Assembly: GCA_963771705.1 (NCBI GenBank)
Contig: CAVYUP010000004.1
Coordinates: forward strand, 126,656-190,655
Direction of reading: 5' to 3'
Length of the DNA: 64,000 nt
Origin: an uncultured Bacteroidota bacterium
Lineage (GTDB): Bacteria; Bacteroidota; Ignavibacteria; Ignavibacteriales; Ignavibacteriaceae
Part shown: positions 16,133-29,805 of the stretch, piece by piece
Numbering within the stretch: position 1 is the stretch's first letter
Layout of the letters: the number at the start of each line of letters is the position of its first letter
Translations under genes and position numbers: made by a program
The notes under the pieces: generated by a model
The model's input: the letters and a program-made list of their open reading frames with translations, nothing else
Told to the model about the DNA's origin: nothing
The model's database searches: none

Positions 16133-16164
16133 CAAAAACGCAAAATTGCAAAAACGCAAAATTG
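16133..16164. repeat. Perfect 16-bp tandem direct repeat (caaaaacgcaaaattg x2) in the divergent promoter region upstream of hydF
   Basis: Read directly: positions 16133-16148 are identical to 16149-16164. Confidence 0.9.
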
Positions 16165-16355
16165 CAGAGGGGAGCGTGATACAATACATACCGGCTTTCT
16201 TATTTAAGAGAATTGGCTTTTCGAAAAGAGAAATTCACTATATAAAGATTCAACACTATTTTAAGCTCAATATTTAAGTTTTAGTGTAAAAATATGATTC
16301 TATTAATAGTTAATGGTGGAACGCTTTTTGACCTTTGTTAATTCAAGGAGAGATT

Positions 16356-17591
16356 ATGCGCGACGAAAAAGAGGAGAGACAAAAGAAAATAGTGTTTGCC
16401 GGCCGCCGGAACGTCGGGAAATCATCCCTTGTTAACGTTTTCCTGGGAAGGGATTTGAGTGTTGTAAGCGAAGCACCCGGGACAACAACCGACCCTGTGA
16501 AAAATACAATGGAACTTCTTCCATACGGATCTGTTCTTCTCATAGATACAGCGGGAATAGACGACGACGGAGAACTTGGAAGCAGAAGGATAAGCAGAAC
16601 CATCAAAGATATTTCAGGGGCGGATTTTGCAGTAGTAGTTATAGACGCAACGCGGACATTATCCACCGAAGAATATGAACTACTGAACTACCTTGATAAA
16701 ATATCGGTACCTTTCGTTATAGCTGCCAATAAAATCGAACTTGGAATTAATCCAGCCCTTCTTGAAGAAATAAAACAGCTTAGCGCCGTTCATTATGAAA
16801 TATCGTGTAAGCTGGGGGTAGGAATTGAATCGCTGAAGAGAAAAGTAATAAGGGCCCTTCCTCCGGATAATGACCCTGCTCTGATAGGTGACCTTATAAG
16901 CAAGGGGGATATGGTGGTGCTGGTTGTTCCGGACGACCTTGGAATTCCAAAGAACAGGCTGATGCTGCCTCATGTGCAGACAATAAGGGAAGCTCTCGAT
17001 AAAGATACTTTGGTGCTGACAGTAAAAGAAAAAGAACTAGCCGCAGCTTTAGTCTCCCTGAAATCCAAACCTGACCTAGTTATTTCCGACAGTCAGGCCA
17101 TAGTTCGTGCAGCTGAAAAAGTTTCGGCCGATACCAGGATTACCACATTTTCCATTCTAACGGCAAGATACAAGGGAGACCTTAAAGCGTTCATTAAAGG
17201 ATTAAAAAGAATCGATGAATTAAAAGACGGCGATAAAGTACTTATTGCCGAGGCTTGCTGTCATCATGACCCTGTGGATGATACAGCGAAGATTAAGATA
17301 CCGGAGTGGCTGTTAAATCACACGAAGAAAAAACTGGTAATCGATTTCTCACAGGGCTCGGAATTACCTGAAAATATCTCTCAATACAGACTTATCATTC
17401 ACTGTAATTCCTGTATGCTGTCGAGGAAGATGACACAGATTCGGCTAAATGAAGCAAGGCTAATGGATGTTCCTGTAGTTAATTACGGAGTAATTATGTC
17501 GTACATGTACGGGGCTGTTCCCAGAGCCCTCCGTCCTTTCAGTGAAGCAATCCGTGAATGGGAAAAAAATGTTCAAAAAACTTATGCATAG
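16356..17591 (+). CDS. hydF: [FeFe]-hydrogenase H-cluster maturation GTPase HydF
   Basis: P-loop GRRNVGKSSL, DTAG, NKIE GTPase motifs, plus C-terminal CCHHD ... HCNSC cluster-binding motifs. The ATG at 16356 is preceded by an aaggagag RBS; the ORF-track TTG at 16335 is unlikely. Confidence 0.85.
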   Translation: MRDEKEERQKKIVFAGRRNVGKSSLVNVFLGRDLSVVSEAPGTTTDPVKNTMELLPYGSVLLIDTAGIDDDGELGSRRISRTIKDISGADFAVVVIDATRTLSTEEYELLNYLDKISVPFVIAANKIELGINPALLEEIKQLSAVHYEISCKLGVGIESLKRKVIRALPPDNDPALIGDLISKGDMVVLVVPDDLGIPKNRLMLPHVQTIREALDKDTLVLTVKEKELAAALVSLKSKPDLVISDSQAIVRAAEKVSADTRITTFSILTARYKGDLKAFIKGLKRIDELKDGDKVLIAEACCHHDPVDDTAKIKIPEWLLNHTKKKLVIDFSQGSELPENISQYRLIIHCNSCMLSRKMTQIRLNEARLMDVPVVNYGVIMSYMYGAVPRALRPFSEAIREWEKNVQKTYA

Positions 17592-17602
17592 TCAAATTCA
17601 TT

Positions 17603-18091
17603 ATGGAAAATACAATTTTAGAAAAATATGTACCGGAAGACAAAAGCAGCCTTATACCAATTTTACAGGACATACAAGAGAAATATGGGTACCTTCCTGA
17701 ATATGAACTGCAGAAAGCTGCCGATTTTGTTGGTATACCTTTAAGTCGTGTTTACGGCGTAGCAACTTTTTATAATCAGTTCAGACTAATACCTCTCGGC
17801 GAGAATGTAATAAAAGTATGCCGGGGAACCGCCTGCCATGTAAAGAGTTCCGCGAACGTGCTTTATGCCATTGAATCCGCTCTGAAAATTAAAGCCGGAG
17901 AGACCACGAGGGATAAAAAATTCACCATTGAAGTTGTCAACTGCATCGGCGCCTGCAGCATTGCCCCTGTAATAACAATAAATAATGAATATTACGGAAG
18001 GCTTACAGTTAAAGATATTCCCGGTTTATTAAAGAAGTTCAACAAGCCGAAAGTAAAGAATGAGGAAGCTGTTCCGGAGGCGGCCTTATGA
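17603..18091 (+). CDS. NuoE/HydC-like [2Fe-2S] thioredoxin-fold subunit (hydrogenase set 1)
   Basis: Cys pattern CRGTAC ... CIGACSIAP. It lies 12 nt after hydF. The stop overlaps the next start (ATGA). Confidence 0.85.
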   Translation: MENTILEKYVPEDKSSLIPILQDIQEKYGYLPEYELQKAADFVGIPLSRVYGVATFYNQFRLIPLGENVIKVCRGTACHVKSSANVLYAIESALKIKAGETTRDKKFTIEVVNCIGACSIAPVITINNEYYGRLTVKDIPGLLKKFNKPKVKNEEAVPEAAL

Positions 18092-20074
18092 AAAACTTTA
18101 TGGAAAAATGCTGCGATAAATGCTGGCACACACCGGAAAAACCGTGCGATCTCTTTATAAACTGCTGTACGAAAGGTCCCCTCTGCCATGAATCTGACAG
18201 CTGCAATGAAAAGATAAAGGACCATAACGACGAATTATCGTTTAAGAAGCACGACGTTCCTTTAATATTTATTGGAATGGGGACGTGCGGTCTGGCCGCA
18301 GGAGCGAAGAAAAGTTGAGGAGGCAATTCAGAATGAATTGTCGAAATCAGGAATTAAAGCAAGGATAATTCCCACAGGATGCATCGGCTATTGCGCAAGG
18401 GAGGTCATTGTTGATATAAAACTTCCTGGCGAAGACAGGGTTTCATACTGCGAAATAACCACGAAGATCGTTCCGAAATTCATCCAGAGAACTATTGTGG
18501 AAAAAGGGGTATTCCATGAAAACCTGCTGGGAAAATTCGGAGAATCGGGAGGAGCAGCATCATCAATTAATGAAAATGATTTCTTTAAAAGGCAATTCAA
18601 GATTGTCCTTGAAAACTGCGGAATAATTGATCCTTCATCAATTGATTCATATATAAACGCGGGAGGATTCAGAGCGCTCGACAAGGTTCTCAGGTTAATG
18701 AAACCGGAGGAAGTTATCGATGAAGTTATACAAAGCGGACTAAGAGGAAGAGGGGGGGCAGGATTTTCGGCAGGGAAAAAATGGCAGCTGGCTCACAATC
18801 AGAAAGCCGATCAGAAATATATCATATGCAACGCGGATGAAGGGGATCCCGGCGCATTTATGGATCGTTCCGTTCTGGAAAGCGATCCTTTCAGAATAGT
18901 TGAAGGAATACTGATTGCCGCATACGCAATAGGAGCATCAAAAGGATATGTCTACTGCCGCGCCGAATATCCCCTGGCAATAGAGAGACTCGAAAACACG
19001 ATCTCCCGGTGCAGGGAGTATGGTCTGCTTGGCACAAATATTCTAAACAGCAGCTTTTCATTTGAACTTAAAATTAAAAAAGGGGCCGGCGCTTTTGTCT
19101 GCGGAGAAGAGACCGCCCTGATGGGATCCATCGAAGGAAAAAGAGGAATGCCGCGCCCCCGTCCCCCTTATCCTGCTGATGCGGGACTCTGGGGAAAACC
19201 AACTTCCATAAACAATGTTGAAACTTTCGCGAACGTTCCCGCAGTTATTTACCGAGGAGCTTCATGGTTTAATTCAATCGGTACCAAAACCAGCAAAGGA
19301 ACAAAAGTATTTGCGTTAAGCGGGAAAATAAAAAACACCGGACTGGTGGAAGTTCCTATGGGAATGACATTAAACGATGTTGTTTTCAAGATAGGCGGAG
19401 GGATTCCCGACAATAAAAAATTCAAAGCGATACAGATAGGAGGACCTTCCGGCGGCTGTCTTCCCGAGAGCGTGATAAACACTCCCGTTGATTATGAATC
19501 ATTGAAGCAGGTGGGTGCTATGATGGGATCGGGGGGATTCGTTGTTATGGACGAAGATACCTGTATGGTAGACGTAGCAAAATACTTCCTCACATTCATC
19601 CAAAATGAATCGTGCGGAAAATGCGTACCCTGCAGGGAAGGAACTAAAAGAATGCTGGAAATAATCGAACGCATTCCCACCAGCTACAAGAACACAAAAA
19701 ATAAATTAGATCAGCTTCAGCGCTTTAAAGGAATAGTTCACCTTCAGAGGCTTGCCGATGTAATCCGCGATACCTCTCTGTGCGGACTCGGGCAATCGGC
19801 GCCCAATCCTGTTCTGTCGGGCCTTCAGTATTTCAGGGAGGAATACGAAGAACATCTGTATGACAGAAAATGTTCAGCTGGAGTATGTAAAGAGCTACTT
19901 ACTTTCACGATTGACAATTCGATATGCAACGGATGCGGAGTATGCAGACTAAAATGTACGGTTGACGCCATAGCGGGAGAGAAGAACAAAGCTCATTACA
20001 TAGTTGAGGATAAATGTATTAAATGCGGAATGTGTTTTGAGGCCTGCAGGTTCAAGGCTATTTCGATTAACTGA
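18088..20074 (+). CDS. NuoF/HydB-like NADH/FMN subunit (hydrogenase set 1), with Cys-rich N-terminal extension, N-terminal [2Fe-2S] domain and C-terminal 2x[4Fe-4S] domain. The reading frame is interrupted by a +1 frameshift at the A4 run 18310-18313.
   Basis: ORF 18088-18318 ends ...IFIGMGTCGLAAGAKKS*. ORF 18272-20074 continues in the +1 frame with ..KVEEAIQNEL...TGCIGYCAREV. Together these form one thioredoxin-like [2Fe-2S] domain. Downstream motifs are GRGGAGF, ESCGKCVPCREG, and CNGCGVCRLKC / CIKCGMCFEAC. Automated pipelines would flag this as a pseudogene or frameshifted gene. Confidence 0.8.
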
Positions 20075-20094
20075 AAACTGAATTTGGAAAATGT

Positions 20095-21834
20095 ATGCTT
20101 TCTTTAACGATAAACAATATTAAAGTTAACGCAGAACCGGGAATGACAATACTTGATGCCGCCGATTCTGTAGGAATATCAATACCAACTTTATGTCATC
20201 TGAAAAATCTGATTCCTTCGGGCGCGTGCAGAATCTGTTCTGTTGAAGTAGAAGGACAGAGAGGCCTGGTTCCGGCATGTGCTTTCCCTATTTACGATGG
20301 AATGGTTGTTCAGTGTAATTCCCCAAGAGTAAGGCGCGCGAGGAAAACAATAGTTGAACTTCTCGTAGAAAATCATCCCGATGACTGTCTTATATGCGTA
20401 CGAAATAAAAACTGCGAACTGCAGGATCTTGCCGAACAATACGGATTGAGAGAACACCGTTATGCGGGAGAGAAGAAATGTCATGCTATCGATGTATCAA
20501 GTCCCTCAATTGAGAGAGATCCCGCGAAATGCATTCTATGCGGAAGATGCGTACGTGTATGTCATGAGGTCCAGAAAATAGGGGCGATTGACTTTACCAG
20601 TCGCGGATTTACCAGTATTGTTTCCACCCCCTTTAACAAAGGCCTGAACATAAGCGACTGTATTCTATGCGGTCAGTGCATCCTTGTTTGTCCCACCGCC
20701 GCTTTAAGAGAAAAAAGTTCGCTGAAAGAAGTTTCCAGCGCATTGCTGAATAAGAAGAAATATCCTGTAGTGCAGATAGCTCCGGCTGTACGTGCTACGC
20801 TTGGTGAATTATATAATTATCCTGCAGGAACCGATGTAACAGGACAGCTTGTTACAGCCTTAAGAAGGCTCGGATTCAAAAAAGTATTTGATACAAACTT
20901 TGCAGCCGATCTGACAATAATGGAGGAATCTGAAGAGCTTATAAACCGTATACAGAACAAAACGAAACCGCTGCCTATGTTTACAAGCTGCTGCCCGTCG
21001 TGGATTAAATACGCCGAGATGAACCACCCCGATTTACTTGATCACATATCAAGCTGCAAGTCGCCCCACGAGATGGAAGGAGCAGTAATTAAAACATATT
21101 ACGCTGAAAAAACAGGCATTGATCCGCAGGATATTTTTGTTGTTTCGATTATGCCGTGCACAGTTAAGAAATATGAGGCCAAACGCGCTGAACTTTCTGA
21201 AAATTCACTGCATGATGTAGACGCTGTTTTAACAACGCGTGAACTGGCAAGATTCTTTAAGATTGCGGGGATAAAGTTCGAAGACCTGCCGCAGGATAAC
21301 TTTGACAATCCCCTGGGAGAATCGACAGGCGCCGCGGCGATATTCGGAGCAAGCGGAGGCGTTATGGAAGCAGCGCTGCGAACCGCTTATTTCAAACTAA
21401 CCGGGAAAGAATCGGAGAAAATTAAATATAAGCCGGTAAAGGGTCAGGCCGGGATAAGAGAAGCTTCATTCTGCATTAACAGTATTACCCTCAACACGGC
21501 GGTAGTGAACGGGATTGGAAACATCGGACCCATACTGCAGGAAATAAGAGAAAACAGGAGCAAGTATCATTTCATTGAGGTGATGACTTGTCACGGCGGC
21601 TGTGTAAACGGAGGCGGTCAGCCGATAAACAATGAACCGGAAAAGATAATAAAGAGAATGAAAGCGCTTTATCGTCTTGATGAAAACGCAGCCCATCACT
21701 GCTCGCATGAAAATGAATTTGTTAAACAGCTCTATGAAGAATTTTTTAATGAACCTGACAACCATAAGGTCCATACCATTCTTCACACAAAATATTCAGG
21801 CAGGCAGGAAGTTCCTGCGGAAAATATAAAATGA
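20095..21834 (+). CDS. hydA: [FeFe]-hydrogenase catalytic subunit HydA (M3-type; canonical H-cluster motifs)
   Basis: N-terminal [2Fe-2S] (CHL..GACRIC..C), HxxxCxxC...C cluster, 2x CxxCxxCxxxCP. L1 is FTSCCPSW (20983-21003), L2 is MPCTVKKYEA, L3 is EVMTCHGGCVNGGGQP. Confidence 0.92.
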   Translation: MLSLTINNIKVNAEPGMTILDAADSVGISIPTLCHLKNLIPSGACRICSVEVEGQRGLVPACAFPIYDGMVVQCNSPRVRRARKTIVELLVENHPDDCLICVRNKNCELQDLAEQYGLREHRYAGEKKCHAIDVSSPSIERDPAKCILCGRCVRVCHEVQKIGAIDFTSRGFTSIVSTPFNKGLNISDCILCGQCILVCPTAALREKSSLKEVSSALLNKKKYPVVQIAPAVRATLGELYNYPAGTDVTGQLVTALRRLGFKKVFDTNFAADLTIMEESEELINRIQNKTKPLPMFTSCCPSWIKYAEMNHPDLLDHISSCKSPHEMEGAVIKTYYAEKTGIDPQDIFVVSIMPCTVKKYEAKRAELSENSLHDVDAVLTTRELARFFKIAGIKFEDLPQDNFDNPLGESTGAAAIFGASGGVMEAALRTAYFKLTGKESEKIKYKPVKGQAGIREASFCINSITLNTAVVNGIGNIGPILQEIRENRSKYHFIEVMTCHGGCVNGGGQPINNEPEKIIKRMKALYRLDENAAHHCSHENEFVKQLYEEFFNEPDNHKVHTILHTKYSGRQEVPAENIK

Positions 21835-23849
21835 ACAACGGAATTGTCAGCACAATATTAGATAAATGCAAGAGATGCTACTCGTGCATACGCGAATGCC
21901 CGGCAAAGGCTATAAGTGTTGTTAACGGCCAGGCAGCTGTAATGAGCGAACGATGCATTGCATGCGGTCATTGCGTAAAAGTATGCTCACAGAACGCAAA
22001 GAGGATTAAATCTGATATTGAACTGGTATTAAATACGTTGATACCCGCCGGAAATACAGCCGCTATCATAGCCCCCTCATTTGCCGCGTCGTTTCCTGAC
22101 AACTCTGAAAAAGTACCTTCAGCTTTGAGAAAGCTGGGTTTCTCGAAAGTAATAGAGACCGCCTTCGGGGCAGATCTTATAAGCGATTATTATTTCGAAG
22201 AATTCCAGAAAGAAGACAGCAGAACAGTAATAAGTTCCGCCTGTCCCGCCGTCATTAATTATATAGAAAAGTATCATGGAGAACTGGTGCCCAATCTTGC
22301 CAAAGTGGTTTCCCCTATGATAGCCGTTGGAAAATACTTACGGGCTTTCAGCGGAGCGGACCAGAAGATAGTATTTATTGGTCCCTGCGTAGCCAAGAAG
22401 CAGGAAGCGGAAGCCGACGAAGTTGCAGGAATAATTGATGCTGTACTAACGTTTACCGAGCTGAAAGAAATGCTGGATATAGCAGGAATAAAGGCGGATG
22501 ATCTTCCGGAATCTGAATTTGATCCACCCCATGCTTACCTGGGTAAATCTTTTCCATTAGCGGGAGGGCTGCTTAAGACGGCGAACATTTCGGGTGATAT
22601 TTTAGCCGAAAACATTATAACCGTTGAAGGTAAATCCAAACTCCTTGAGCTGATTGATGAGATATCGGGGAACCGGATCAACGCGAGATTTGCAGATGTA
22701 CTTTTCTGTGAAGGGTGTATAAGCGGACCGGCAATAGACAGCAATCTTAATTACTATTCCCGCAGGGAAAAAGTAATTAAATATATAGAAAAGAAAATCC
22801 ACACCGTAGACAAGCAGGAGTGGAAGAGCAACATCTACAACGCCAGGAATATCGATTTAAGCAGGACATTTTCCGTTAAAAACCAGAGAAGGCCTTATCC
22901 CACCGAAGAAAAGATAAAAGAAATACTTGCCGAGATAAATAAATACACGGTAAAAGATGAATTGAACTGCGGGGCCTGCGGATACAACAGCTGCAGGGAT
23001 TTTGCTGTTGCCATAGCGAAAGGATTAGCCGAAAAGGAAATGTGTCTTCCGCTTCTTATTGATCAGCTTGCCAAAGCTTACGATGATCTGCAGAGTACGC
23101 AGGATCAGCTTCGCACGGCCGAGAAGCTGGCATCAATAGGACAGCTTGCCGCCGGTGTTGCGCACGAGATAAATAATCCCCTTGGTACCATCATGATATA
23201 CGCTTCAATTTTGAAAAAAGAACTGAAAGTAAAAGCTGATGGGGCTCAGTCCTCTGAGGATCTTAATCTTATCATCGAAGAAGCAAACAGGTGCAAGAAC
23301 ATTGTAGGGAACCTGCTGAACTTTGCCCGTCAGGGGAAATTAAATCTCAGTGTAATAAACGTGAGAAGTTTCCTGAAGAACATTCTGAAAAACATAGGAA
23401 TAAATCCCCTTTACAAAGATTATGAAATAAACTGCGGTTTGGTCTCTGATTCATTAGAGATTGAAGGAGATGTTGATCAGCTAAAGCAGGTTTTCTTAAA
23501 TCTGCTCAACAACGCGCTGGAATCAATGGAAGAGAGCAGCAGGAAAATACTGACAATCGGCATTAAAGAAGACGAAGAATACCTGATAATAAAGATAGAA
23601 GACACCGGGTGCGGAATAAGAAAAGAGAATTTCGGAAAAATATTCACACCATTCTTCACTACGAAGAAAATGGGTCGTGGAACGGGTCTTGGACTTGCAA
23701 TAACCTACGGCATCGTGAAAATGCACAAAGGCTCCATTGAATTCCAGAGTGATGAAGGAGAGGGGACAGCATTTACGATAAAACTTCACAAAAAATTAAA
23801 AAAAGTAAGTACTGAAACTATTGAGGAAAATAATGAATACGTCTGTTAA
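21831..23849 (+). CDS. Sensory [FeFe]-hydrogenase-like (HydS/group C-type) domain fused to an Fe-S domain and a histidine kinase
   Basis: 2x[4Fe-4S] motifs (CKRCYSCIRECP, CIACGHCVKVC). H-domain with degenerate motifs SSACPAV (A137 at 22239-22241), GPCVAKKQE, FCEGCISGP. CGACGYNSC...C Fe-S domain. H-box AAGVAHEINNPL. HATPase N/G boxes (LLNNALES, DTGCGI, GTGLGL). The start overlaps the hydA stop (ATGA). Confidence 0.85.
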   Translation: MNNGIVSTILDKCKRCYSCIRECPAKAISVVNGQAAVMSERCIACGHCVKVCSQNAKRIKSDIELVLNTLIPAGNTAAIIAPSFAASFPDNSEKVPSALRKLGFSKVIETAFGADLISDYYFEEFQKEDSRTVISSACPAVINYIEKYHGELVPNLAKVVSPMIAVGKYLRAFSGADQKIVFIGPCVAKKQEAEADEVAGIIDAVLTFTELKEMLDIAGIKADDLPESEFDPPHAYLGKSFPLAGGLLKTANISGDILAENIITVEGKSKLLELIDEISGNRINARFADVLFCEGCISGPAIDSNLNYYSRREKVIKYIEKKIHTVDKQEWKSNIYNARNIDLSRTFSVKNQRRPYPTEEKIKEILAEINKYTVKDELNCGACGYNSCRDFAVAIAKGLAEKEMCLPLLIDQLAKAYDDLQSTQDQLRTAEKLASIGQLAAGVAHEINNPLGTIMIYASILKKELKVKADGAQSSEDLNLIIEEANRCKNIVGNLLNFARQGKLNLSVINVRSFLKNILKNIGINPLYKDYEINCGLVSDSLEIEGDVDQLKQVFLNLLNNALESMEESSRKILTIGIKEDEEYLIIKIEDTGCGIRKENFGKIFTPFFTTKKMGRGTGLGLAITYGIVKMHKGSIEFQSDEGEGTAFTIKLHKKLKKVSTETIEENNEYVC

Positions 23850-24243
23850 AAAAATATTGCTTGTAGACGACGATATCGACCTGCTAGAACAAAACAAACT
23901 GATGCTTGAATCGAAAGGTTATGAAGTTGTTACCGCAGAGAGCGGAAAAGAAGGATGGGAACTTTTCAAAAAAGTAAAACCGGATGGTGCTATAATCGAC
24001 TTAATAATGGAAGAACATGATTCGGGCTTTATTCTCAGCTACAGGATAAAAAAAGACAAGTACGGAAAGACAATTCCCGTATTTGTTCTTACATCCGCGA
24101 CGTACATAACTGGATTTAAATTCAGCGCGGCAACCGATGAGGAAAAAGAATGGATATGCTGCGACGAAATAATCAACAAGCCGGTAGTTATAGATGAACT
24201 TGCGCAGAAACTGGAAGAATATTTCAGTGTGAAAGTATCTTAA
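23833..24243 (+). CDS. Stand-alone response-regulator receiver (CheY-like, no output domain)
   Basis: LLVDDD, IIDLIM (phospho-Asp), LTSAT, NKPV. The ATG at 23833 overlaps the kinase 3' end by 17 nt. Confidence 0.85.
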   Translation: MNTSVKKILLVDDDIDLLEQNKLMLESKGYEVVTAESGKEGWELFKKVKPDGAIIDLIMEEHDSGFILSYRIKKDKYGKTIPVFVLTSATYITGFKFSAATDEEKEWICCDEIINKPVVIDELAQKLEEYFSVKVS

Positions 24244-25766
24244 TGGAAGAAAAAATTCAGCCGAAGGTTTTAGTAGTTGATGACGAAAAAGGACTGCGGC
24301 TCGGGACAAAAAGACTGCTCGAAGCCGAGGGCTACATTGTGAGCTCCGCGGAGAACGGTACTGAAGGGATAAGGCTGGGAACCTCGGAAGAATTTGATCT
24401 AGCGGTTATTGATATGCGGATGCCCGACAAGGACGGGATAAAAGTGCTGAAAGAAATATTGCAGGCATACCCGAATACTATTTGTTTTATCGCTACCGCA
24501 TATGCCAGTTACGAAACGGCAATTGAAGCGACAAAAACAGGAGCGTTTGGTTATATACTGAAACCATTCACTCCCGAAGAACTGCTTTCACGGCTCAAGG
24601 AAGGATATGCAAAGAGGCTCCTGCTGCTGGAAACAGAAAAATGGAAAAGCGAAAGAGAAGAAAGATTACTTGAGGTCGCGTTTGAAAAAACCAGACTAAA
24701 TACCATTGTAAATTCGATAAGCGACGGTGTCTTTGTAGTAAACAAGAAGGGTGAAACAGTTCTTTTCAATCCCGCTCTCACCAGGTACATCAACGTAAAT
24801 CAAATAGAAATCGAAAAGAATACGCTGGAAAAAATCCATCCGAAAATAAAAACTCTTATTAATAAAATCCTTCGTGCCGAAAACCCGGAAAACAAATCGT
24901 ATTCAGATCAGATTGAATTAAAAGAGAGAGGTGAATTATTTATTGAGGCAACATCTTCGGCCGTACCTCATCCTGACGGATCACTTGCCGGGGTAGTTGT
25001 TGTTATAAAAAACATCACCGAACTGAAGAGGATAGAACACCTGAAATCGCAGTTTGTATCGATGGTTTCGCATGAGCTGAAAGCCCCTCTGGCCGCCGTA
25101 TACGGTTATCTGAAACTGCTTACTGACGATGCTTTTGACACCAGCAGAGAGCAGAGGATATCATATATGAAACGTTCGATGGTGAGACTCGATTCATTAT
25201 TAAAAATGGTGAATGACCTCCTTGATATCAGCAGGATGGAATTAAAAACTGTTCAGAGAGAAATAAAACAGGTTGATATTTCTGAAGTTCTTGATTCAAT
25301 ATTGGATTTATTCAGCGCGGAAATACAAAAGAAGAACCTTTCGGTTAAAAAGGATTATGATATAAGCTGCGAGCATTTTTTTGCGGCTAAAGAAGAATTA
25401 GTAAGGCTATTCACAAACCTTATCAGCAACGCAGTAAAATATAACCGTGAACAAGGTTCCATTCATATTACGGCAGAAACAACGGAAAATCATCTGATAA
25501 TAGAAATCCATGACACAGGGATTGGGCTTAAAGAAAACGAGAAAGAAAAGCTCTTTCAGGAATTCTACCGCGCAAAAAATGAAAAAACAAAAGATATAAG
25601 CGGTACGGGGCTTGGTTTATCGATAGTAAAAAAGATCGTTGAATCTTACTCAGGTAAAATAGAAGTAGAATCTGAATTCGGTAAAGGAACCTCATTCAAA
25701 ATATCATTTCCTCTGACAGTGAAGAAAAAAGTTCTAAACGAAGAGAGTAATATACTCATTCAATAA
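24243..25766 (+). CDS. Hybrid REC-PAS-histidine kinase
   Basis: N-terminal receiver (VVDDEKG, VIDMRMPDKDG, KPF), a PAS-like segment (LNTIVNSISDGVFVVNKKGE), H-box MVSHELKAPL, and HATPase (LISNAVKYN, DTGIGL, GTGLGL). The start overlaps the previous stop by 1 nt. Confidence 0.88.
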   Translation: MEEKIQPKVLVVDDEKGLRLGTKRLLEAEGYIVSSAENGTEGIRLGTSEEFDLAVIDMRMPDKDGIKVLKEILQAYPNTICFIATAYASYETAIEATKTGAFGYILKPFTPEELLSRLKEGYAKRLLLLETEKWKSEREERLLEVAFEKTRLNTIVNSISDGVFVVNKKGETVLFNPALTRYINVNQIEIEKNTLEKIHPKIKTLINKILRAENPENKSYSDQIELKERGELFIEATSSAVPHPDGSLAGVVVVIKNITELKRIEHLKSQFVSMVSHELKAPLAAVYGYLKLLTDDAFDTSREQRISYMKRSMVRLDSLLKMVNDLLDISRMELKTVQREIKQVDISEVLDSILDLFSAEIQKKNLSVKKDYDISCEHFFAAKEELVRLFTNLISNAVKYNREQGSIHITAETTENHLIIEIHDTGIGLKENEKEKLFQEFYRAKNEKTKDISGTGLGLSIVKKIVESYSGKIEVESEFGKGTSFKISFPLTVKKKVLNEESNILIQ

Positions 25767-25788
25767 AATAAACTAACGGGACGAATAA

Positions 25789-26169
25789 ATGATTAAAATA
25801 GTAATAATAGACGATGACCCCGACATACTGGATGTAAGTAAAATAGTTCTGTCCTCTAAAGGGTACAGCGTATTTACGGCTCAGAATCCTGATGACGGCT
25901 ATAAATTAATAAAAGATCAGAAACCTGATCTTATTATTCTCGATGTAATGATGAATGAACCGGACGACGGATTTTTCCTTGCGCAGAAATTACGAAGGGA
26001 AAAAATCGACACTCCGATCATAATGTATACATCTGTTTCAAAGACCCTGGGGTTTGAATTCGGCAAGAGCGAAATGGTTCCTGTGGACGAATACGTAGAA
26101 AAACCGATATCACCCGATGAACTAATCGCAAAAGTTGAAAAACTTCTGCCCCAGAAAGTAAAGGAGTAG
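25789..26169 (+). CDS. Stand-alone response-regulator receiver (paralog of 23833-24243, no output domain)
   Basis: IIDDD, LIILDVMM, MYTSVS, EKPI. It shares the unusual TS..x..GF.F insertion with the first REC. Confidence 0.85.
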   Translation: MIKIVIIDDDPDILDVSKIVLSSKGYSVFTAQNPDDGYKLIKDQKPDLIILDVMMNEPDDGFFLAQKLRREKIDTPIIMYTSVSKTLGFEFGKSEMVPVDEYVEKPISPDELIAKVEKLLPQKVKE

Positions 26170-26172
26170 CAT

Positions 26173-26646
26173 ATGCTGGTTTACGAAAAAAACAAATTAT
26201 CGGAGGATGTAGAATCCTTTGTAGAAAAATACGGATCAGACCGATCCGCGCTACTGCCAATTCTGCAGGCGATCCAGAGAAAATATCATCATATATCGGG
26301 ATTCGCGCAGCAGGAGGTTGCAAGACTAATGAATATTCACCCTGTAGAAGTGAACAGTATAATATCCTTTTACTCCTTTCTGCATGAAGACCCCCAGGGG
26401 AGAAATATAGTAAGGTTATGTAAAACAATCTCCTGCGATATGGCGGGAAAGACAGAAGTTGAAAAAGCTGTTCAAAGAGAACTAGGCATTTCATTCGGCG
26501 AAACTACTAAAGATAACCGTATTACACTGGAACATACCAATTGTCTCGGTATGTGCGATGAAGGTCCTGCTATGCTGGTAAACGAGAAAGTTTACACTCA
26601 GCTTGATCCTGAAACTGCGGTAAAAATACTGAGTGAAATAAAGTAG
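26173..26646 (+). CDS. NuoE/HydC-like [2Fe-2S] subunit (hydrogenase set 2)
   Basis: Cys pattern CKTISC ... CLGMCDEGP. It starts 3 nt after the REC gene. Confidence 0.85.
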   Translation: MLVYEKNKLSEDVESFVEKYGSDRSALLPILQAIQRKYHHISGFAQQEVARLMNIHPVEVNSIISFYSFLHEDPQGRNIVRLCKTISCDMAGKTEVEKAVQRELGISFGETTKDNRITLEHTNCLGMCDEGPAMLVNEKVYTQLDPETAVKILSEIK

Positions 26647-26655
26647 GAGAATGAA

Positions 26656-27876
26656 ATGAACACATCATACGCAACAAAAAAGCGCACAGGTCCCGTACTT
26701 TTTTCCGAATACACAAAAGGGGAAGGAATAAGGCATCTGGCCGAAAAATCGCGCGAAGATATTCTATTTGAATTAAAAACCTCCGGACTGAAAGGAAGAG
26801 GCGGGGCAGGATTTCCGACCTCCACGAAGTGGATGCTGACAGCCGCGGCTATTTCCGAGAAGAAATATCTTGTATGCAATGCCGATGAAGGCGAACCGGG
26901 CACATTCAAAGACCGTGTTCTGCTGCTGGAGTACCCAGAGCTGGTATTTGACGGAATGGTTATAGGAGGATACACGACCGGTGCTCAGACAGGGATAGTA
27001 TACCTTCGGGGAGAGTATGAATATATGCTTGAACACCTTGAAGAGTACCTTATGAAGATGCGTGAGGATAATCTGCTCGGTAATAACATTATAGGTAAAA
27101 AAGATTTCAATTTTGATATTAGTATAAGACTTGGCTCAGGAGCATACGTCTGCGGTGAGGAAACCGCACTTATAGAATCCCTTCAGGGGAACAGAGGAGA
27201 GCCGCGCAACAGGCCACCTTACCCGGTGAATACCGGTTATATGGGATACCCCACATCAGTAAACAATGTTGAAACACTCGCCTCGGCCGCGCACATAGCG
27301 GTAAAAGGAGGGGAGTGGTTCAGGCATTTCGGCACCGACAAATCCACAGGATCCAAGTTATTTTCAGTTTCCGGGGACTGCGGCAGGCCGGGTGTTTACG
27401 AACTTCCCTGGGGAAGCTCAATTAAGCAGCTGCTTAAAATAGTTGAGGCCAAAGATACCAAAGCCGTGCAGGTAGGCGGCGCTTCGGGGATATGCATTCC
27501 GAAGACACAGTTCGATCGTATCCTAGCTTACGAGGATGCCGCAACAGGCGGATCTATCATCGTCTTTAATGAGACGCGTGATATGCTTAAGGTGCTAAAG
27601 AATTTCCTCGAATTCTTTGTGGAAGAATCGTGCGGACAATGTACACCCTGCAGGATAGGCAACGTTAAACTGCTTGAGGGTGTTAAGCAGATTGAAAAAG
27701 GAGAATTCACTTTTTCATATATCAACACATTGAAGGAACTCGGGAAGACAATGCAGGTCGCTTCAAAATGTGGACTTGGTCAGTCATCGCCGAATTCTTT
27801 TATTTCAATACTGGAAAACTTTAAGGATGAAATATTCCACACAAACGGAAAGGTGAGAAGAAATGGAAAAGAATAA
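26656..27876 (+). CDS. Minimal NuoF-like NADH/FMN subunit (hydrogenase set 2), lacking the N-terminal [2Fe-2S] and C-terminal ferredoxin-like domains of set 1
   Basis: GRGGAGFP, NADEGEPGTF, ESCGQCTPCRIG, KCGLGQS. The protein ends about 30 aa after the last motif, and no CxxCxxCxxxC motifs are present. Confidence 0.85.
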   Translation: MNTSYATKKRTGPVLFSEYTKGEGIRHLAEKSREDILFELKTSGLKGRGGAGFPTSTKWMLTAAAISEKKYLVCNADEGEPGTFKDRVLLLEYPELVFDGMVIGGYTTGAQTGIVYLRGEYEYMLEHLEEYLMKMREDNLLGNNIIGKKDFNFDISIRLGSGAYVCGEETALIESLQGNRGEPRNRPPYPVNTGYMGYPTSVNNVETLASAAHIAVKGGEWFRHFGTDKSTGSKLFSVSGDCGRPGVYELPWGSSIKQLLKIVEAKDTKAVQVGGASGICIPKTQFDRILAYEDAATGGSIIVFNETRDMLKVLKNFLEFFVEESCGQCTPCRIGNVKLLEGVKQIEKGEFTFSYINTLKELGKTMQVASKCGLGQSSPNSFISILENFKDEIFHTNGKVRRNGKE

Positions 27877-29743
27877 TAACAGCAGGTCGCCGGAAAGCCA
27901 GAGACCCTTTGTAGTTGAAAAAGCACCAGGCGAAAAAGAAATGATCGGTGGAATGGTTTCAGTTGAAATAAACGAGAAAAAGATCTCGATACCTCTCGGC
28001 ACAACCATACTTGAAGCATGCAGGATGAACCAGATCCACATTCCTTCCCTATGCTACCATGAAGACCTCTGCATAGCGGGAGTATGCCGTGTATGTGTAG
28101 TAGAGGTTGAGGGGATGAAGACATTACAGACAGCGTGTTCATTCCCGGTAACCACTCCTATAAAAATTCACACATCAACACCTCACGTAAGAAAAGCAAG
28201 GCGTCATATAATCGACCTTCTGCTAAGTGAGCATTACGGCGAGTGCTATACCTGTTCGAGGAACCAGAACTGCGAGCTTCAGGAACTGGCAAAGGAATAC
28301 GGAGTTGACGGATTCACTTTCGGGCACATTGAAGAACCAAAATATCCTGTAGACAGATCATCGTCATCTGTTATAAGAAATATGAACAAGTGTGTCCTTT
28401 GCAAGAGGTGTATAAGGACGTGTATCGACCTTCAGGAAGTAGGCGTGCTGGAAGCCCTTAACAGGGGGCACGAAACGAAAGTTGGTACTTTCCTGGACAA
28501 ACCGCTGGCAGATGTAATTTGCATAAACTGCGGTCAGTGCATTAACCGTTGTCCCACCGGCGCACTAAAGGCAAACGACCCATCTGATGAAATATGGAGA
28601 GCAATCGATGATCCTTCTAAACACGTAGTTATACAAACCGCGCCTTCTCCGCGGGCAGCAATAGGTGAGGAATTCGGTATAGAGCCGGGTCACTCTTTTA
28701 CCGGCGAGCTCAACACAGCATTAAGAAGGATCGGGTTTAACAGAGTTTTCGACACAAACTTTACCGCAGACCTTACCATTATGGAAGAAGGCACAGAGCT
28801 GCTCAACAGGCTTAAAAAAGCTCTTGTTAATAAAGACGAGTCGATTAAGCTGCCGCAGTTCACCTCCTGCTCGCCAGGCTGGGTAAAGTTCATAGAGCAC
28901 TTCTACCCTGAATACCTTGATTATCTTTCAACGGCAAAATCTCCCCAGCAGATGTTCGGGGCGCTCATAAAAACCTTTTACGCTAAGGAAGCAAAAGTAG
29001 ATCCCGCTGATATAGTTACCGTTGCGCTTATGCCCTGTTCGGCCAAAAAATTTGAATGCAACAGGCCGGAAATGAATGATTCAGGATTCAAAGACGTTGA
29101 TTATGGTTTAACCACCCGCGAAATGGCTCAGATGATTAAAGAAGCGGGAATTTATCTTCCGGAAATGCCGAAGTCGCATTTTGACGATCCCTTCGGGGAC
29201 GCATCGGGTGCGGGACTGATATTCGGAGCGACCGGAGGAGTAATGGAAGCCGCTTTAAGGACGGTATACGAGCTGGTTACGGGGAGACCTGTACCGTTTA
29301 AGAATCTTGATATCACTCCCTGCCGCGGTTTCGACGGTGTTAAGCAGGCATCCGTTAAACTTGAGAACTGTGTTAACGAGTATAAATTCCTTGAAGGAAT
29401 AGAATTAAAGTTCATCGTTGCACACGGAACAGCCAATGCAAAGAAGGTAATGGAAATGCTGCGGCGGGGTGAACTAAAGGACGTTCACTTTGTAGAGATA
29501 ATGGCTTGTCCCGGCGGATGCCTTGGAGGTGGAGGGCAGCCTATACCGACATCTTCCGAAATAAGGCAGAAGCGGGCGCAGGCAATTTATGAAGAAGACG
29601 CATCATTACCCGTCAGGAAATCCCATGAAAACGAGCATGTTCAGTACATTTATGAAAACTTCCTGACCGAGGGTCCCTGCAGCGAACTATCGCATAAACT
29701 GCTGCATACCCATTACACAAAAAGAGGCAAATTCATTTCATAA
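27863..29743 (+). CDS. hydA: [FeFe]-hydrogenase catalytic subunit paralog (HydA2) with a non-canonical L1 motif
   Basis: NuoG-like N-terminus ([2Fe-2S], HxxxCxxC..C, 2x4Fe-4S). L1 is FTSCSPGW (28859-28882), L2 is MPCSAKKFEC, L3 is EIMACPGGCLGGGGQP. An alternative start at M27 (27941) is possible. Confidence 0.88.
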   Translation: MEKNNNSRSPESQRPFVVEKAPGEKEMIGGMVSVEINEKKISIPLGTTILEACRMNQIHIPSLCYHEDLCIAGVCRVCVVEVEGMKTLQTACSFPVTTPIKIHTSTPHVRKARRHIIDLLLSEHYGECYTCSRNQNCELQELAKEYGVDGFTFGHIEEPKYPVDRSSSSVIRNMNKCVLCKRCIRTCIDLQEVGVLEALNRGHETKVGTFLDKPLADVICINCGQCINRCPTGALKANDPSDEIWRAIDDPSKHVVIQTAPSPRAAIGEEFGIEPGHSFTGELNTALRRIGFNRVFDTNFTADLTIMEEGTELLNRLKKALVNKDESIKLPQFTSCSPGWVKFIEHFYPEYLDYLSTAKSPQQMFGALIKTFYAKEAKVDPADIVTVALMPCSAKKFECNRPEMNDSGFKDVDYGLTTREMAQMIKEAGIYLPEMPKSHFDDPFGDASGAGLIFGATGGVMEAALRTVYELVTGRPVPFKNLDITPCRGFDGVKQASVKLENCVNEYKFLEGIELKFIVAHGTANAKKVMEMLRRGELKDVHFVEIMACPGGCLGGGGQPIPTSSEIRQKRAQAIYEEDASLPVRKSHENEHVQYIYENFLTEGPCSELSHKLLHTHYTKRGKFIS

Positions 29744-29753
29744 TTAGTAATTT

Positions 29754-29795
29754 GAGGCTGCCGCCAAAGTTAATTCCGCGGCGGCCTCATTTTAT
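29754..29795 (+). terminator. Rho-independent terminator after hydA2
   Basis: gaggctgccgcc (29754-29765) pairs with gcggcggcctc (29778-29788), giving 10 bp with one bulge, followed by atttta. Confidence 0.65.
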
Positions 29796-29805
29796 ATGGA
29801 GTAAA

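What the first reader, a model, noticed from the sequence alone, without database searches (positions are those of the whole stretch)
21831..23849. Hydrogenase-like sensory domain fused to a histidine kinase and translationally coupled to hydA1
Seen: the N-terminal 310 aa have the [FeFe]-hydrogenase H-domain layout, with two ferredoxin-type clusters. All four H-cluster cysteines are retained (C138, C186, C293, C296), as is the L2 lysine. The proton-relay cysteine is replaced, giving SSACP (A137, 22239-22241) instead of TSCCP. L3 reads FCEGCISGP instead of ExMxCxxGCxxGGGQP. Next come a CGACGYNSC...C Fe-S domain and a complete HisKA/HATPase module (H445). The start codon overlaps the hydA1 stop. 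Established: this substitution pattern is what defines the putative sensory (group C, HydS-type) [FeFe]-hydrogenases. To my knowledge those have been studied spectroscopically but never shown to drive a kinase. Inference: this protein is a direct H2-to-phosphorylation transducer.
Basis: partly seen in the sequence, partly recalled or inferred. Interest (0 to 1): 0.75.

Follow-up and report, generated by a model that had tools for sequence, protein, structure and literature searches.

The report
Hydrogenase-like sensor fused to histidine kinase
This gene encodes a soluble histidine kinase whose input domain is a degenerate [FeFe]-hydrogenase; it belongs to a widespread family, already catalogued but never tested biochemically, that probably tells the cell how much hydrogen or reducing power is present so it can regulate its hydrogenases.

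Summary
ORF 21831-23849 (+, 672 aa) carries two ferredoxin-type [4Fe-4S] motifs, a full-length [FeFe]-hydrogenase H-domain, a Cx2Cx4Cx16C Fe-S domain and a complete HisKA/HATPase kinase.

The four Cys align with the H-cluster ligands of the two canonical HydA proteins in the window. The proton-relay Cys is Ala. Two details were missed: the last two ligands are spaced Cx2C rather than Cx3C, and about 32 residues are deleted before L3.

The fusion is not an artefact and not rare. At least 80 species genomes from more than 12 phyla encode it full-length, usually directly downstream of hydC-hydB-hydA and followed by a stand-alone receiver and a second kinase.

It is also not new. HydDB (2016) lists a putative histidine-kinase-linked [FeFe] group C. 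A 2024 paper describes kinase-bearing group C proteins downstream of the hydrogenase gene bfuA (hydA here). No biochemistry on any of them was found.

The best reading is an H2/redox-gated, NtrB-like kinase feeding a phosphorelay. In Ignavibacteria the relay probably acts on a sigma54-type promoter upstream of the hyd operon. Whether the Cx2C site holds a [2Fe] subcluster is the main unknown.

Verdict: new member of a known, uncharacterised kind. Interest is moderate.

The parts
21831..23849 (+). hydS-HK: 672-aa soluble sensor histidine kinase with a hydrogenase-like input module
   Evidence: ORF; Pfam architecture; 120 same-length homologues
21855..21998 (+). N-terminal 2x[4Fe-4S] ferredoxin domain (C13,16,19,23 and C42,45,48,52)
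   Evidence: Pfam Fer4_10/Fer4; all 8 Cys invariant in 120 homologues
22056..22730 (+). H-domain (Fe_hyd_lg_C), residues 76-300. L1 is SSACP (22233-22247), L2 is GPCVAKK (22380-22400), L3 is FCEGCISGP (22704-22730).
   Evidence: Pfam E 1e-51 over the full profile; alignment to HydA1/HydA2; AF2 pLDDT about 85-95; Foldseek matches to TmHydA, CpI and CbA5H at probability 1.0
22962..23051 (+). C-terminal Fe-S domain PF04060 with Cx2Cx4Cx16C (C380, C383, C388, C405)
   Evidence: Pfam; Cys invariant; the same motif is described for TmHydS and TamHydS (PMC8163306)
23046..23162 (+). Predicted continuous helix that starts right after Fe-S ligand C405 and runs into the phospho-acceptor region. This is the inferred signalling helix.
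   Evidence: AF2 DSSP gives helix 406-467. The function is inferred.
23139..23792 (+). HisKA (H445 at 23163-23165, HExxN motif) plus HATPase_c with N, G1, F and G2 boxes
   Evidence: Pfam; best PDB hit ZraS, E 5e-35; nearest NCBIfam families AtoS/ZraS, below cutoff; box residues invariant
23821..24243 (+). RR1: stand-alone receiver (about 136 aa, Asp60 in IIDLIM). It is the conserved immediate downstream partner.
   Evidence: Pfam; a REC directly downstream in 47 of 68 loci
24243..25766 (+). REC-PAS-HisKA-HATPase hybrid kinase (Asp57, His277). It is the conserved third member of the signalling triad.
   Evidence: Pfam; REC followed by a second HK in 45 of 68 loci; seen
25789..26169 (+). RR3: second stand-alone receiver, 37% identical to RR1, heading the hydC2-hydB2-hydA2 block
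   Evidence: Pfam; BLASTP; conserved in Ignavibacteria loci
17558..21834 (+). hydC1 (NuoE-like), hydB1 (NuoF-like with Fer4 domains, apparent frameshift near 18300) and hydA1 (canonical TSCCP/MPC/ExMxCxxGC)
26173..29743 (+). hydC2, short hydB2 (no Fer4 domains) and hydA2 (L1 is TSCSP)
16335..17591 (+). hydF maturase GTPase, first gene of the packed 12-gene array (likely ATG at 16356)
   Evidence: Pfam HydF_dimer/HydF_tetramer; gene spacing
16317..16331 (+). Candidate sigma54-type -24/-12 promoter TGGAACGCTTTTTGA, 39 nt before the hydF ATG
   Evidence: TGG..A and TG are invariant in 17 aligned Ignavibacteria upstream regions. This is an inference, not a demonstrated promoter.
16196..16248 (+). 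Conserved upstream block with palindromes (TTTCTTA-TT-TAAGAGAA; CTTTTC|GAAAAG; TTCAC..AAAGA) about 70-120 nt upstream of the -24 element. Candidate activator binding site.
   Evidence: Alignment A6; coordinates. Inference only.

Best explanation
HydS-HK is a cytoplasmic, dimeric, NtrB-like sensor kinase. Its input is the redox state of a hydrogenase-derived metallo-module.

Proposed mechanism, all inferred:
1. A slow, relay-less H-cluster-type site (C138, C186, C293, C296; K189; Ala at the proton-relay position) equilibrates with H2.
2. It passes electrons to the accessory [4Fe-4S] clusters.
3. The C-terminal Cx2Cx4Cx16C cluster has its last ligand, C405, at the start of a long helix that runs into His445.
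4. Reduction or oxidation of this cluster shifts the kinase/phosphatase balance.
5. Phosphoryl groups go to the conserved partners: the stand-alone receiver RR1 and/or the receiver of the REC-PAS-HK hybrid.
6. The signal finally reaches an NtrC-type sigma54 activator encoded elsewhere in the genome.
7. That activator drives the sigma54-type promoter upstream of hydF-hydC1B1A1-hydS-HK. This sets expression of two alternative NADH-linked hydrogenases according to H2 pressure or redox state.

Shown here: the domain architecture, motif mapping, conservation, synteny, and promoter-like elements.

Inferred: [2Fe] binding, H2 dependence, direction of regulation, phosphotransfer partners, and sigma54 dependence.
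For: Input module:
- The four Cys map onto the H-cluster ligands. K189, APS 81-83, P162 and F241 are kept.
- The fold matches solved [FeFe]-hydrogenases.
- 138 of 142 representative clusters of 450 aa or more keep all four Cys.
- The module matches the one in TmHydS and TamHydS: loss of the C299-equivalent, M353 to G, and Cx2Cx4Cx16C. Both of those proteins bind [2Fe]adt and turn over H2 slowly (PMC8163306).
- The same module is fused to HK in 37 of 71 Cx2C-type clusters, to a sigma54 AAA+ activator in 15 of 71, and to PAS in 9 of 71. Cx3C-type clusters are mostly PAS. This is the behaviour of a portable input domain.

Kinase:
- It is complete, and the H, N, G1, F and G2 boxes are invariant.

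Synteny in 80 species genomes from more than 12 phyla:
- HydA lies within 6 kb in 67 of 80.
- HydA is directly upstream in 46 of 68.
- A REC is directly downstream in 47 of 68, followed by a second HK in 45 of 68.
- hydF is in the same operon in this window.

Sigma54 link:
- The kinase core is closest to AtoS/ZraS, and the RR1 receiver is closest to the GlrR receiver.
- A TGGCA[CT]-N5-[AT]TG element lies 32-76 nt before the first gene in 19 of 23 Ignavibacteria-type loci. In six genomes it lies directly before a sensor-kinase gene that is the first gene of its run.
- Perfect consensus sites occur in L020 and in L043, and L043 has a divergent REC-EBP.
Against: - L3 is Cx2C, not Cx3C. No member of this subtype has been characterised, and the studied HydS is a PAS-bearing protein, the architecture that goes with the Cx3C subtype here.
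- M353, M497 and Q325 are also changed.
- PMC11406978 could hardly find canonical H-cluster motifs in the group C1 proteins of Hydrogenedentota, some of which carry HATPase_c, and doubts that they sense H2.
- No DNA-binding regulator lies in the cluster or anywhere in the 64-kb window. An EBP is nearby in only 5 of 80 loci.
- The window's own -24/-12 element is weak (TGGAAC/TTGA), and a canonical pattern search gave no more hits than chance.
- The promoter motif was defined after the first examples had been seen.
Confidence: 0.55

Rival explanations
1. Fe-S redox (or O2/NO) sensor without a [2Fe] subcluster. The H-domain keeps only the [4Fe-4S] cubane, as in eukaryotic Nar1/NARFL. The kinase then reports the reduction state of the ferredoxin/NADH pool, or of the neighbouring hydrogenase, rather than H2 itself.
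For: - L3 spacing is shortened to Cx2C in the whole subfamily.
- C299, M353, M497 and Q325 are all replaced.
- Four conserved Cys do not distinguish an H-cluster from a plain cubane (own knowledge of Nar1).
- PMC11406978 doubts the H-cluster motifs.
- Some loci have no hydrogenase genes within 6-10 kb (L002/L003, L053, L068, L076).
Against: - The Lys that hydrogen-bonds a CN ligand (K189) is invariant in the 120 closest homologues, as are P82-S83 and P162 (A81 in 119 of 120).
- hydF is co-operonic here and recurs next to the module in other phyla.
- The nearest characterised relatives do bind [2Fe].
Confidence: 0.25
2. Accessory 'T' subunit of the HydABC complex. The protein docks on the hydrogenase, exchanges electrons with it, and reports the enzyme's turnover or redox state. 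It is not a free-standing H2 sensor.
For: - The start codon overlaps the hydA1 stop.
- The gene is directly downstream of hydA in 46 of 68 loci.
- PMC11406978 names such proteins BfuT, that is, a subunit of sub-types IV and V.
Against: - The overlap is not conserved; gaps are 11-146 nt in relatives.
- The sensor-HK/REC/HK triad occurs alone in several genomes with its own promoter-like element.
- No complex containing such a subunit has been solved; the PDB HydABC entries have none.
Confidence: 0.12
3. A low-activity catalytic hydrogenase whose kinase domain is vestigial.
For: TmHydS and TamHydS show measurable H2 turnover.
Against: - All kinase catalytic boxes and His445 are invariant.
- The partner receiver and the second kinase are conserved.
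- The proton relay is absent.
Confidence: 0.03

Closest known systems
TmHydS (Thermotoga maritima), a putative sensory [FeFe]-hydrogenase of group C, subclass M2f
   Same: N-terminal 2x[4Fe-4S], an H-domain lacking the C299 relay, M353 replaced by Gly, a C-terminal Cx2Cx4Cx16C cluster, and an operon shared with a group A hydrogenase (PMC8163306 and PMC10055695).
   Different: TmHydS ends in a PAS domain and has no kinase. In my survey PAS-type relatives have Cx3C in L3, whereas this protein has Cx2C. M497 is Ser in TmHydS and Leu here.
TamHydS (Thermoanaerobacter mathranii), group D, subclass M2e
   Same: No PAS domain, M497 replaced by Leu, the C-terminal 4-Cys cluster, a position upstream of a bifurcating hydrogenase, and a flanking kinase-like ATPase.
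   Different: The kinase is a separate gene there. M353 is Ser/Thr in M2e but an invariant Gly here.
HydDB [FeFe] group C1 'histidine kinase-linked (putative)', and the kinase-bearing group C proteins (BfuT, sub-type V) of Hydrogenedentota, Calditrichota and Bacteroidota
   Same: A hydrogenase-like sensor carrying HATPase_c or a histidine kinase domain, located directly downstream of bfuA/hydA. Bacteroidota have a second sensor upstream of bfuC (PMC5037454; PMC11406978). My loci L041, L056, L060, L062 and L080-L086 show this arrangement at 41-44% identity over the full length.
   Different: This is an Ignavibacteria member placed between two hydrogenase operons. The HydDB subgroup (C1 or C3) could not be assigned here. 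The published work is genomic only.
[NiFe] regulatory hydrogenase systems: HoxBC-HoxJ-HoxA (Cupriavidus necator) and HupUV-HupT-HupR (Rhodobacter capsulatus)
   Same: The logic is the same: a crippled hydrogenase signals through a histidine kinase to an NtrC-family regulator that controls hydrogenase genes (own knowledge; HydDB group 2b).
   Different: The metal site and fold are unrelated. In those systems sensor and kinase are separate proteins linked by a PAS-like domain. Here they form one polypeptide with an Fe-S domain at the junction.
ZraS/AtoS-type (NtrB-like) histidine kinases
   Same: The DHp and CA core. ZraS is the best PDB hit (E 5e-35) and AtoS the best NCBIfam kinase family at 200 bits, below its cutoff.
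   Different: This protein has no transmembrane or periplasmic sensor, and the partner next door is a receiver-only protein rather than a REC-AAA+-HTH activator.
Nar1/NARFL/IOP1, eukaryotic hydrogenase-like proteins
   Same: An H-domain fold with conserved cubane cysteines and no hydrogenase proton relay (own knowledge).
   Different: Those act in cytosolic Fe-S assembly and have no kinase. Here the CN-binding Lys and co-operonic hydF point to a real H-cluster, but this is untested.

Membership tests
[FeFe]-hydrogenase H-domain (Pfam PF02906) | Profile match above the curated cutoff over the whole domain | tested here: met
   176 bits against a cutoff of 22.1; profile positions 3-245 of 245; fold matches to CpI, TmHydA and CbA5H
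[FeFe]-hydrogenase H-domain (Pfam PF02906) | Four H-cluster cysteine ligands (CpI C300, C355, C499, C503) | tested here: met
   C138, C186, C293 and C296 align to the ligand Cys of the in-window HydA1. They are invariant in 120 homologues. The spacing of the last two is Cx2C, not Cx3C.
Catalytic (group A) [FeFe]-hydrogenase | Canonical L1 TSCCPxW, L2 MPCxxKxxE and L3 ExMxCxxGCxxGGGQP, including the proton-relay Cys | tested here: not met
   SSACPAV, GPCVAKKQE and DVLFCEGCISGPAI. Position 137 is Ala (70), Ser (49) or Tyr (1), never Cys.
Catalytic (group A) [FeFe]-hydrogenase | C-terminal small-subunit-like domain (PF02256) | tested here: not met
   Absent here; present in HydA1 and HydA2
Putative sensory [FeFe]-hydrogenase (group C, HydS type) | N-terminal 2x[4Fe-4S] plus an H-domain lacking C299, plus a C-terminal Cx2Cx4Cx16C cluster | tested here: met
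   the definition is from PMC8163306
Putative sensory [FeFe]-hydrogenase (group C, HydS type) | PAS domain after the Fe-S domain (M2f) | tested here: not met
   No PAS match. HisKA follows the Fe-S domain directly.
Putative sensory [FeFe]-hydrogenase (group C, HydS type) | Genomic linkage to a group A3-type HydABC | tested here: met
   Here it lies between two hydCBA sets. HydA is within 6 kb in 67 of 80 related genomes.
Putative sensory [FeFe]-hydrogenase (group C, HydS type) | Binds an H-cluster and reacts with H2 | not testable with these tools
   Needs maturation and spectroscopy. Only PAS-type or M2e relatives have been characterised.
HydDB [FeFe] group C1 / C3 subgroup | Assignment by the HydDB k-NN classifier or by phylogeny | not testable with these tools
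   The classifier is not available here. By architecture and synteny it equals the kinase-bearing group C proteins of PMC11406978.
HisKA-type sensor histidine kinase | H-box His, plus N, G1, F and G2 boxes | tested here: met
   H445 (HEINNPL), N561, D591xGxG595, F605xPFF, G617TGLGL. All are invariant.
HisKA-type sensor histidine kinase | Adjacent cognate receiver | tested here: met
   RR1 overlaps the 3' end here. A REC is directly downstream in 47 of 68 loci. Phosphotransfer itself was not tested.
NtrB/NtrC-type sigma54 two-component system | REC-AAA+-HTH activator partner and a -24/-12 promoter | tested here: inconclusive
   Promoter-like elements are conserved in Ignavibacteria. There is no EBP in the window. 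An EBP is adjacent in 5 of 80 loci, and the sensor is fused to an EBP in 15 of 71 clusters.

The most novel reading that the evidence does not exclude
The Cx2C-type sensor kinase is a genuine H2-gated kinase built on a variant H-cluster site. Together with its two conserved partners (a receiver-only protein and a REC-PAS kinase), it forms a phosphorelay. That relay acts through a sigma54 promoter and a conserved palindromic upstream site. It switches the cell between a full-length, bifurcating-type HydABC and a second HydABC with a truncated HydB and a Ser in place of one H-cluster Cys ligand. This would be the first [FeFe]-based H2-to-phosphorylation pathway with a defined output.
Probability: 0.3. 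Interest if true: 0.65.

Novelty: new member of a known kind. Interest (0 to 1): 0.38.

Why it matters
Whether group C [FeFe]-hydrogenases really sense H2 is still open. The assignment is called putative in reviews (PMC8924675), and the enzymes studied so far end in a PAS domain or have no output domain.

A sensor fused to a complete kinase gives a one-protein assay: autophosphorylation with and without H2. That assay could settle the question.

The family is large, with at least 547 species genomes hit, and sits next to bifurcating-type hydrogenases in many anaerobic phyla. The answer would therefore bear on how fermenters and syntrophs tune H2 production.

The Cx2C L3 signature defined here also explains why motif-based screens failed to recognise H-cluster sites in these proteins.

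Tried and rejected
- **Contig look-up.** The exact-protein look-up for the window's own protein found nothing, and the cluster look-up gave no names or accessions. The organism is therefore inferred only from homologue names (Ignavibacteriales/Ignavibacteriaceae).
- **Canonical sigma54 search.** TGGCACN5TTGCW with up to 2 mismatches gave 9 hits against 21.8 expected, none relevant. The hydF-proximal site emerged only from a relaxed pattern derived from related loci, so it is partly post hoc.
- **k-mer enrichment.** The search for an upstream activator site returned only A/T-rich words. The palindromic block rests on the alignment alone.
- **Sigma70 and terminator scans.** Neither exceeded the shuffle expectation.
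- **Pfam on all representatives.** The run exceeded the size limit, so it was split by L3 type.
- **Literature.** The Greening 2016 and Zheng 2014 papers are not held. Searching 'TSCSP' returned no hydrogenase paper.
- **Missing genes.** Looked for HydE, HydG and a sigma54 activator in the window and found none. The radical-SAM ORF 36953-38176 is HemW-like.
- **Assembly chimera.** Rejected because more than 120 homologues have the same length.
- **Geometry of the four Cys.** The structure tool does not return model coordinates, so distances could not be measured.

Full report
**What is there.** The window carries a tightly packed array of 12 genes on the + strand, from 16335 to 31194. The order is:
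- hydF
- hydC1 (NuoE-like), hydB1 (NuoF-like), hydA1
- the gene in question (21831-23849)
- a stand-alone receiver (RR1)
- a REC-PAS-HisKA-HATPase hybrid kinase
- a second stand-alone receiver (RR3)
- hydC2, a short hydB2, hydA2
- a membrane kinase with a PilS-like 6TM domain

All listed gaps are 22 nt or less. The one exception is an apparent 180-nt gap that is really a frameshift in hydB1. The start codon of the 672-aa ORF overlaps the hydA1 stop as ATGA.

**Checking the observation.** Pfam finds the following:
- a 2x[4Fe-4S] ferredoxin domain (residues 9-56)
- Fe_hyd_lg_C over its whole profile (residues 76-300, E 1e-51)
- the PF04060 Fe-S domain (378-407)
- HisKA (437-501)
- HATPase_c (546-654)

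There is no PAS domain and no small-subunit-like domain. MAFFT alignments with the two canonical HydA proteins of the same window place SSACP under TSCCP, GPCVAKK under MPCTVKK and FCE-GCISGP under TCHGGCVNGGG. The same columns hold in a 153-sequence alignment.

C138, C186, C293 and C296 therefore map onto the H-cluster ligands. K189 maps onto the L2 lysine and A137 onto the proton-relay Cys. The CpI numbering here comes from my knowledge of the L1-L3 signatures.

The last two ligands are spaced Cx2C rather than Cx3C. About 32 residues present in HydA1 and HydA2 are deleted just before L3.

An AlphaFold2 model built on 120 homologues gives the H-domain a pLDDT of about 85-95. Foldseek matches it to T. 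maritima HydA, CpI and CbA5H at probability 1.0, and matches the C-terminal half to ZraS.

**Conservation.** The 120 closest homologues are 64-77% identical and mostly named Ignavibacteriales or Ignavibacteriaceae. All have the same length and architecture.
- All 16 Fe-S and H-cluster cysteines, K189, P82-S83, P162 and H445 are invariant; A81 is kept in 119 of 120.
- The relay position is Ala (70), Ser (49) or Tyr (1), never Cys.
- The N, G1, F and G2 boxes of the kinase are invariant.

The fusion is therefore real and under purifying selection.

**The wider family.** A search of 1.84 billion cluster representatives with the sensor module alone (residues 1-420) found 1070 clusters below E 1e-30. 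All of the best 150 match the query's Fer4-H-domain-FeS module, nearly all over most of its length. They divide by L3 type.
- **Cx2C type, which includes this protein.** Median length is 677 aa. Of 71 clusters, 37 are fused to HATPase_c/HisKA, 15 to a sigma54 AAA+ activator (10 of them with a Fis-type HTH), and about 9 to PAS.
- **Cx3C type.** Median length is 575 aa and the fusion partner is almost always PAS, the classical HydS architecture.

All have Gly in place of M353. One input module joined to alternative signalling outputs is how sensor domains typically behave. This is the strongest in-silico argument that the module is a sensor rather than an enzyme.

**Synteny.** A scan of one genome per species found at least 547 genomes with relatives. 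The best 80 all match over almost the full length, kinase included, at 40-68% identity. They come from Ignavibacteria, Bacteroidales, Planctomycetota, Myxococcota, Hydrogenedentota, Spirochaetota, Verrucomicrobiota, Acidobacteriota, Calditrichota, KSB1, Desulfobacterota, Melainabacteria, Clostridia and Actinomycetota.

I classified six-frame ORFs of these loci with phmmer.
- A group A HydA lies within 6 kb in 67 of 80 loci.
- HydA is directly upstream on the same strand in 46 of the 68 loci with enough flank. Another 7 have the order HydA-REC-sensor.
- A receiver of about 135 aa is directly downstream in 47 of 68, followed by a second kinase in 45 of 68.

In Ignavibacteria the whole two-hydrogenase supercluster is conserved. 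In some genomes, however, the sensor-HK/REC/HK triad stands alone with no hydrogenase gene within 10 kb.

The ATGA overlap with hydA1 is not conserved. The gap is 11-146 nt in relatives.

**How it probably works.** The kinase core is NtrB-like.
- ZraS is the best PDB hit.
- AtoS and ZraS are the nearest NCBIfam kinases, below their cutoffs.
- JGI names the homologues 'NtrC family sensor kinase'.
- It carries the HExxN motif that, to my knowledge, goes with phosphatase activity.

The fourth ligand of the C-terminal cluster, C405, is immediately followed by a helix predicted to run unbroken from 406 to 467 through His445. I infer that the redox state of this cluster is transmitted along this helix to the DHp domain. 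The cluster's redox state would itself be set by H2 at the relay-less H-site through the Fe-S chain.

No DNA-binding regulator lies in the cluster or in the 64-kb window. Three observations nevertheless link the family to sigma54.
1. The sensor is fused directly to an EBP in other lineages.
2. An EBP is adjacent in 5 of 80 loci, including a divergent REC-EBP in L043.
3. A -24/-12-type element, TGGCA[CT]-N5-[AT]TG, lies 32-76 nt before the first gene of the operon in 19 of 23 Ignavibacteria-type loci. This includes loci where the sensor-kinase gene itself comes first. L020 and L043 have perfect consensus sites.

A score of at least 8 of 10 consensus positions occurs in 19 of 70 target regions, against 9.5% of random windows.

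In this window the element is TGGAACGCTTTTTGA at 16317-16331, 39 nt before the likely hydF ATG. An alignment of 17 upstream regions keeps TGG.A and TG invariant. It also shows a conserved palindromic block (TTCTTA...TAAGAA type) roughly 70-120 nt further upstream, which is a candidate activator site.

This promoter inference is partly post hoc. A strict consensus search in the window was not above chance.

**Main uncertainty.** It is unknown whether the Cx2C site holds a [2Fe] subcluster. Arguments for:
- The CN-binding Lys and the APS, P162 and F241 pocket residues are kept.
- hydF is co-operonic.
- TmHydS and TamHydS, which share this module, bind [2Fe]adt (PMC8163306).

Arguments against:
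- The changed Cys spacing.
- Replacement of M353, M497 and Q325.
- No member of this subtype has been characterised.
- PMC11406978 explicitly doubts that the HATPase_c-bearing group C1 proteins of Hydrogenedentota have H-cluster motifs.

I put the H2/redox-gated sensor-kinase model at 0.55, a cubane-only redox sensor at 0.25, a docked regulatory subunit of HydABC at 0.12 and a catalytic role at 0.03.

**Comparison with what is known.** The module equals that of the putative sensory hydrogenases.
- HydDB has listed '[FeFe] group C1, histidine kinase-linked (putative)' since 2016.
- A Bacteroidota genome paper reports such a protein next to Hnd.
- PMC11406978 (2024) describes group C proteins with HATPase_c or a histidine kinase domain directly downstream of bfuA in Hydrogenedentota, Calditrichota (Caldithrix abyssi) and Bacteroidota, with a second sensor upstream of bfuC in Bacteroidota. 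This is exactly the arrangement my loci L041, L056, L060, L062 and L080-L086 show.
- I found no paper reporting kinase biochemistry, and the sensory role is still called putative.

The functional analogue is the [NiFe] regulatory hydrogenase with HoxJ/HoxA or HupT/HupR (own knowledge). That system is unrelated in fold.

The finding is a new Ignavibacteria member of a known but uncharacterised kind. This analysis adds:
- the Cx2C L3 signature
- the phylum-spanning sensor-HK/REC/HK triad
- the alternative fusion to sigma54 activators
- a candidate sigma54 promoter and upstream site

Interest is moderate at 0.38, mainly because the fused kinase offers a direct assay for a long-standing question.

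Noticed in passing
window 28859-28882 (HydA2 residues 333-340); HydA2 orthologues in L001, L005, L006: The second hydrogenase HydA2 has L1 as FTSCSPGW. The Cys equivalent to CpI C300, a ligand of the H-cluster cubane, is Ser, while the proton-relay Cys is kept. L2 and L3 are canonical. The motif is identical in three other Ignavibacteria genomes, so it is conserved and not an error. The protein still passes NCBIfam 'NADH-dependent [FeFe] hydrogenase, group A6'. No paper mentioning this motif in hydrogenases was found.
   Followed up: partly
window 26656-27876 (hydB2) versus 18272-20074 (hydB1): HydB2 is a 406-aa NuoF core without the ferredoxin-like domains that HydB1 carries at its C-terminus. 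The two HydABC sets are therefore likely to differ in electron-bifurcation capacity. The pairing of a long and a short HydB is conserved in Ignavibacteria.
   Followed up: partly
window ~18090-18320: hydB1 has an apparent frameshift. The N-terminal ...IFIGMGTCGLAAGAKK is in a different frame from the rest of the ORF, near an A-rich run. Orthologues are intact at 661 aa. This is either an assembly error or a pseudogene.
   Followed up: partly
window 16134-16165: A perfect tandem duplication of AAAAACGCAAAATTGC, each copy holding the palindrome GCAAnnTTGC, lies about 150-180 nt upstream of the -24-like element before hydF. It is absent from the six related loci held at that point (L001-L006), including the closest relative L004.
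   Followed up: partly
P0154, P0155, P0163, P0165, P0167, P0174, P0179, P0180, P0188, P0192, P0206, P0208, P0211, P0257, P0261: In other lineages the same hydrogenase-like sensor module is fused directly to a sigma54 AAA+ activator (GAFTGA motif), often with a Fis-type HTH. These would be one-component regulators of the same putative signal.
   Followed up: partly
window 23821-24243 and 25789-26169: RR1 and RR3 are 37% identical paralogous receiver-only proteins. Both have extra residues between the conserved Thr/Ser and Lys positions. Neither has an output domain, so the final output of the pathway is not encoded locally.
   Followed up: partly
window 23292-23294 (Cys488): A Cys in the second DHp helix of the kinase (EEANRCKNIV) is invariant in all 120 close homologues, unlike the other non-ligand Cys residues. 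It could be a redox-active or structural residue.
   Followed up: no
window 29752-31194: A membrane histidine kinase with a PilS-like 6TM domain follows hydA2 directly. It is conserved at that position in Ignavibacteria loci.
   Followed up: no
L063, L072, L080, L081, L083, L085, L086: Bacteroidales loci carry a second, divergently oriented sensor module without a kinase upstream of hydC, in addition to the sensor-kinase downstream of hydA. This matches the two-bfuT arrangement reported in PMC11406978.
   Followed up: partly
window 33553-36663 (- strand): A 1036-aa Type ISP restriction-modification enzyme sits in the lowest-GC stretch of the window (0.35 at 34-36 kb against about 0.42-0.44 elsewhere). 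This suggests a horizontally acquired island.
   Followed up: no
L007: The best species-level match (68% identity, same hydCBA-sensor-REC-HK order) is labelled 'uncultured Chloroflexia bacterium', while all other close relatives are Ignavibacteria. This is probably a mis-binned contig.
   Followed up: no
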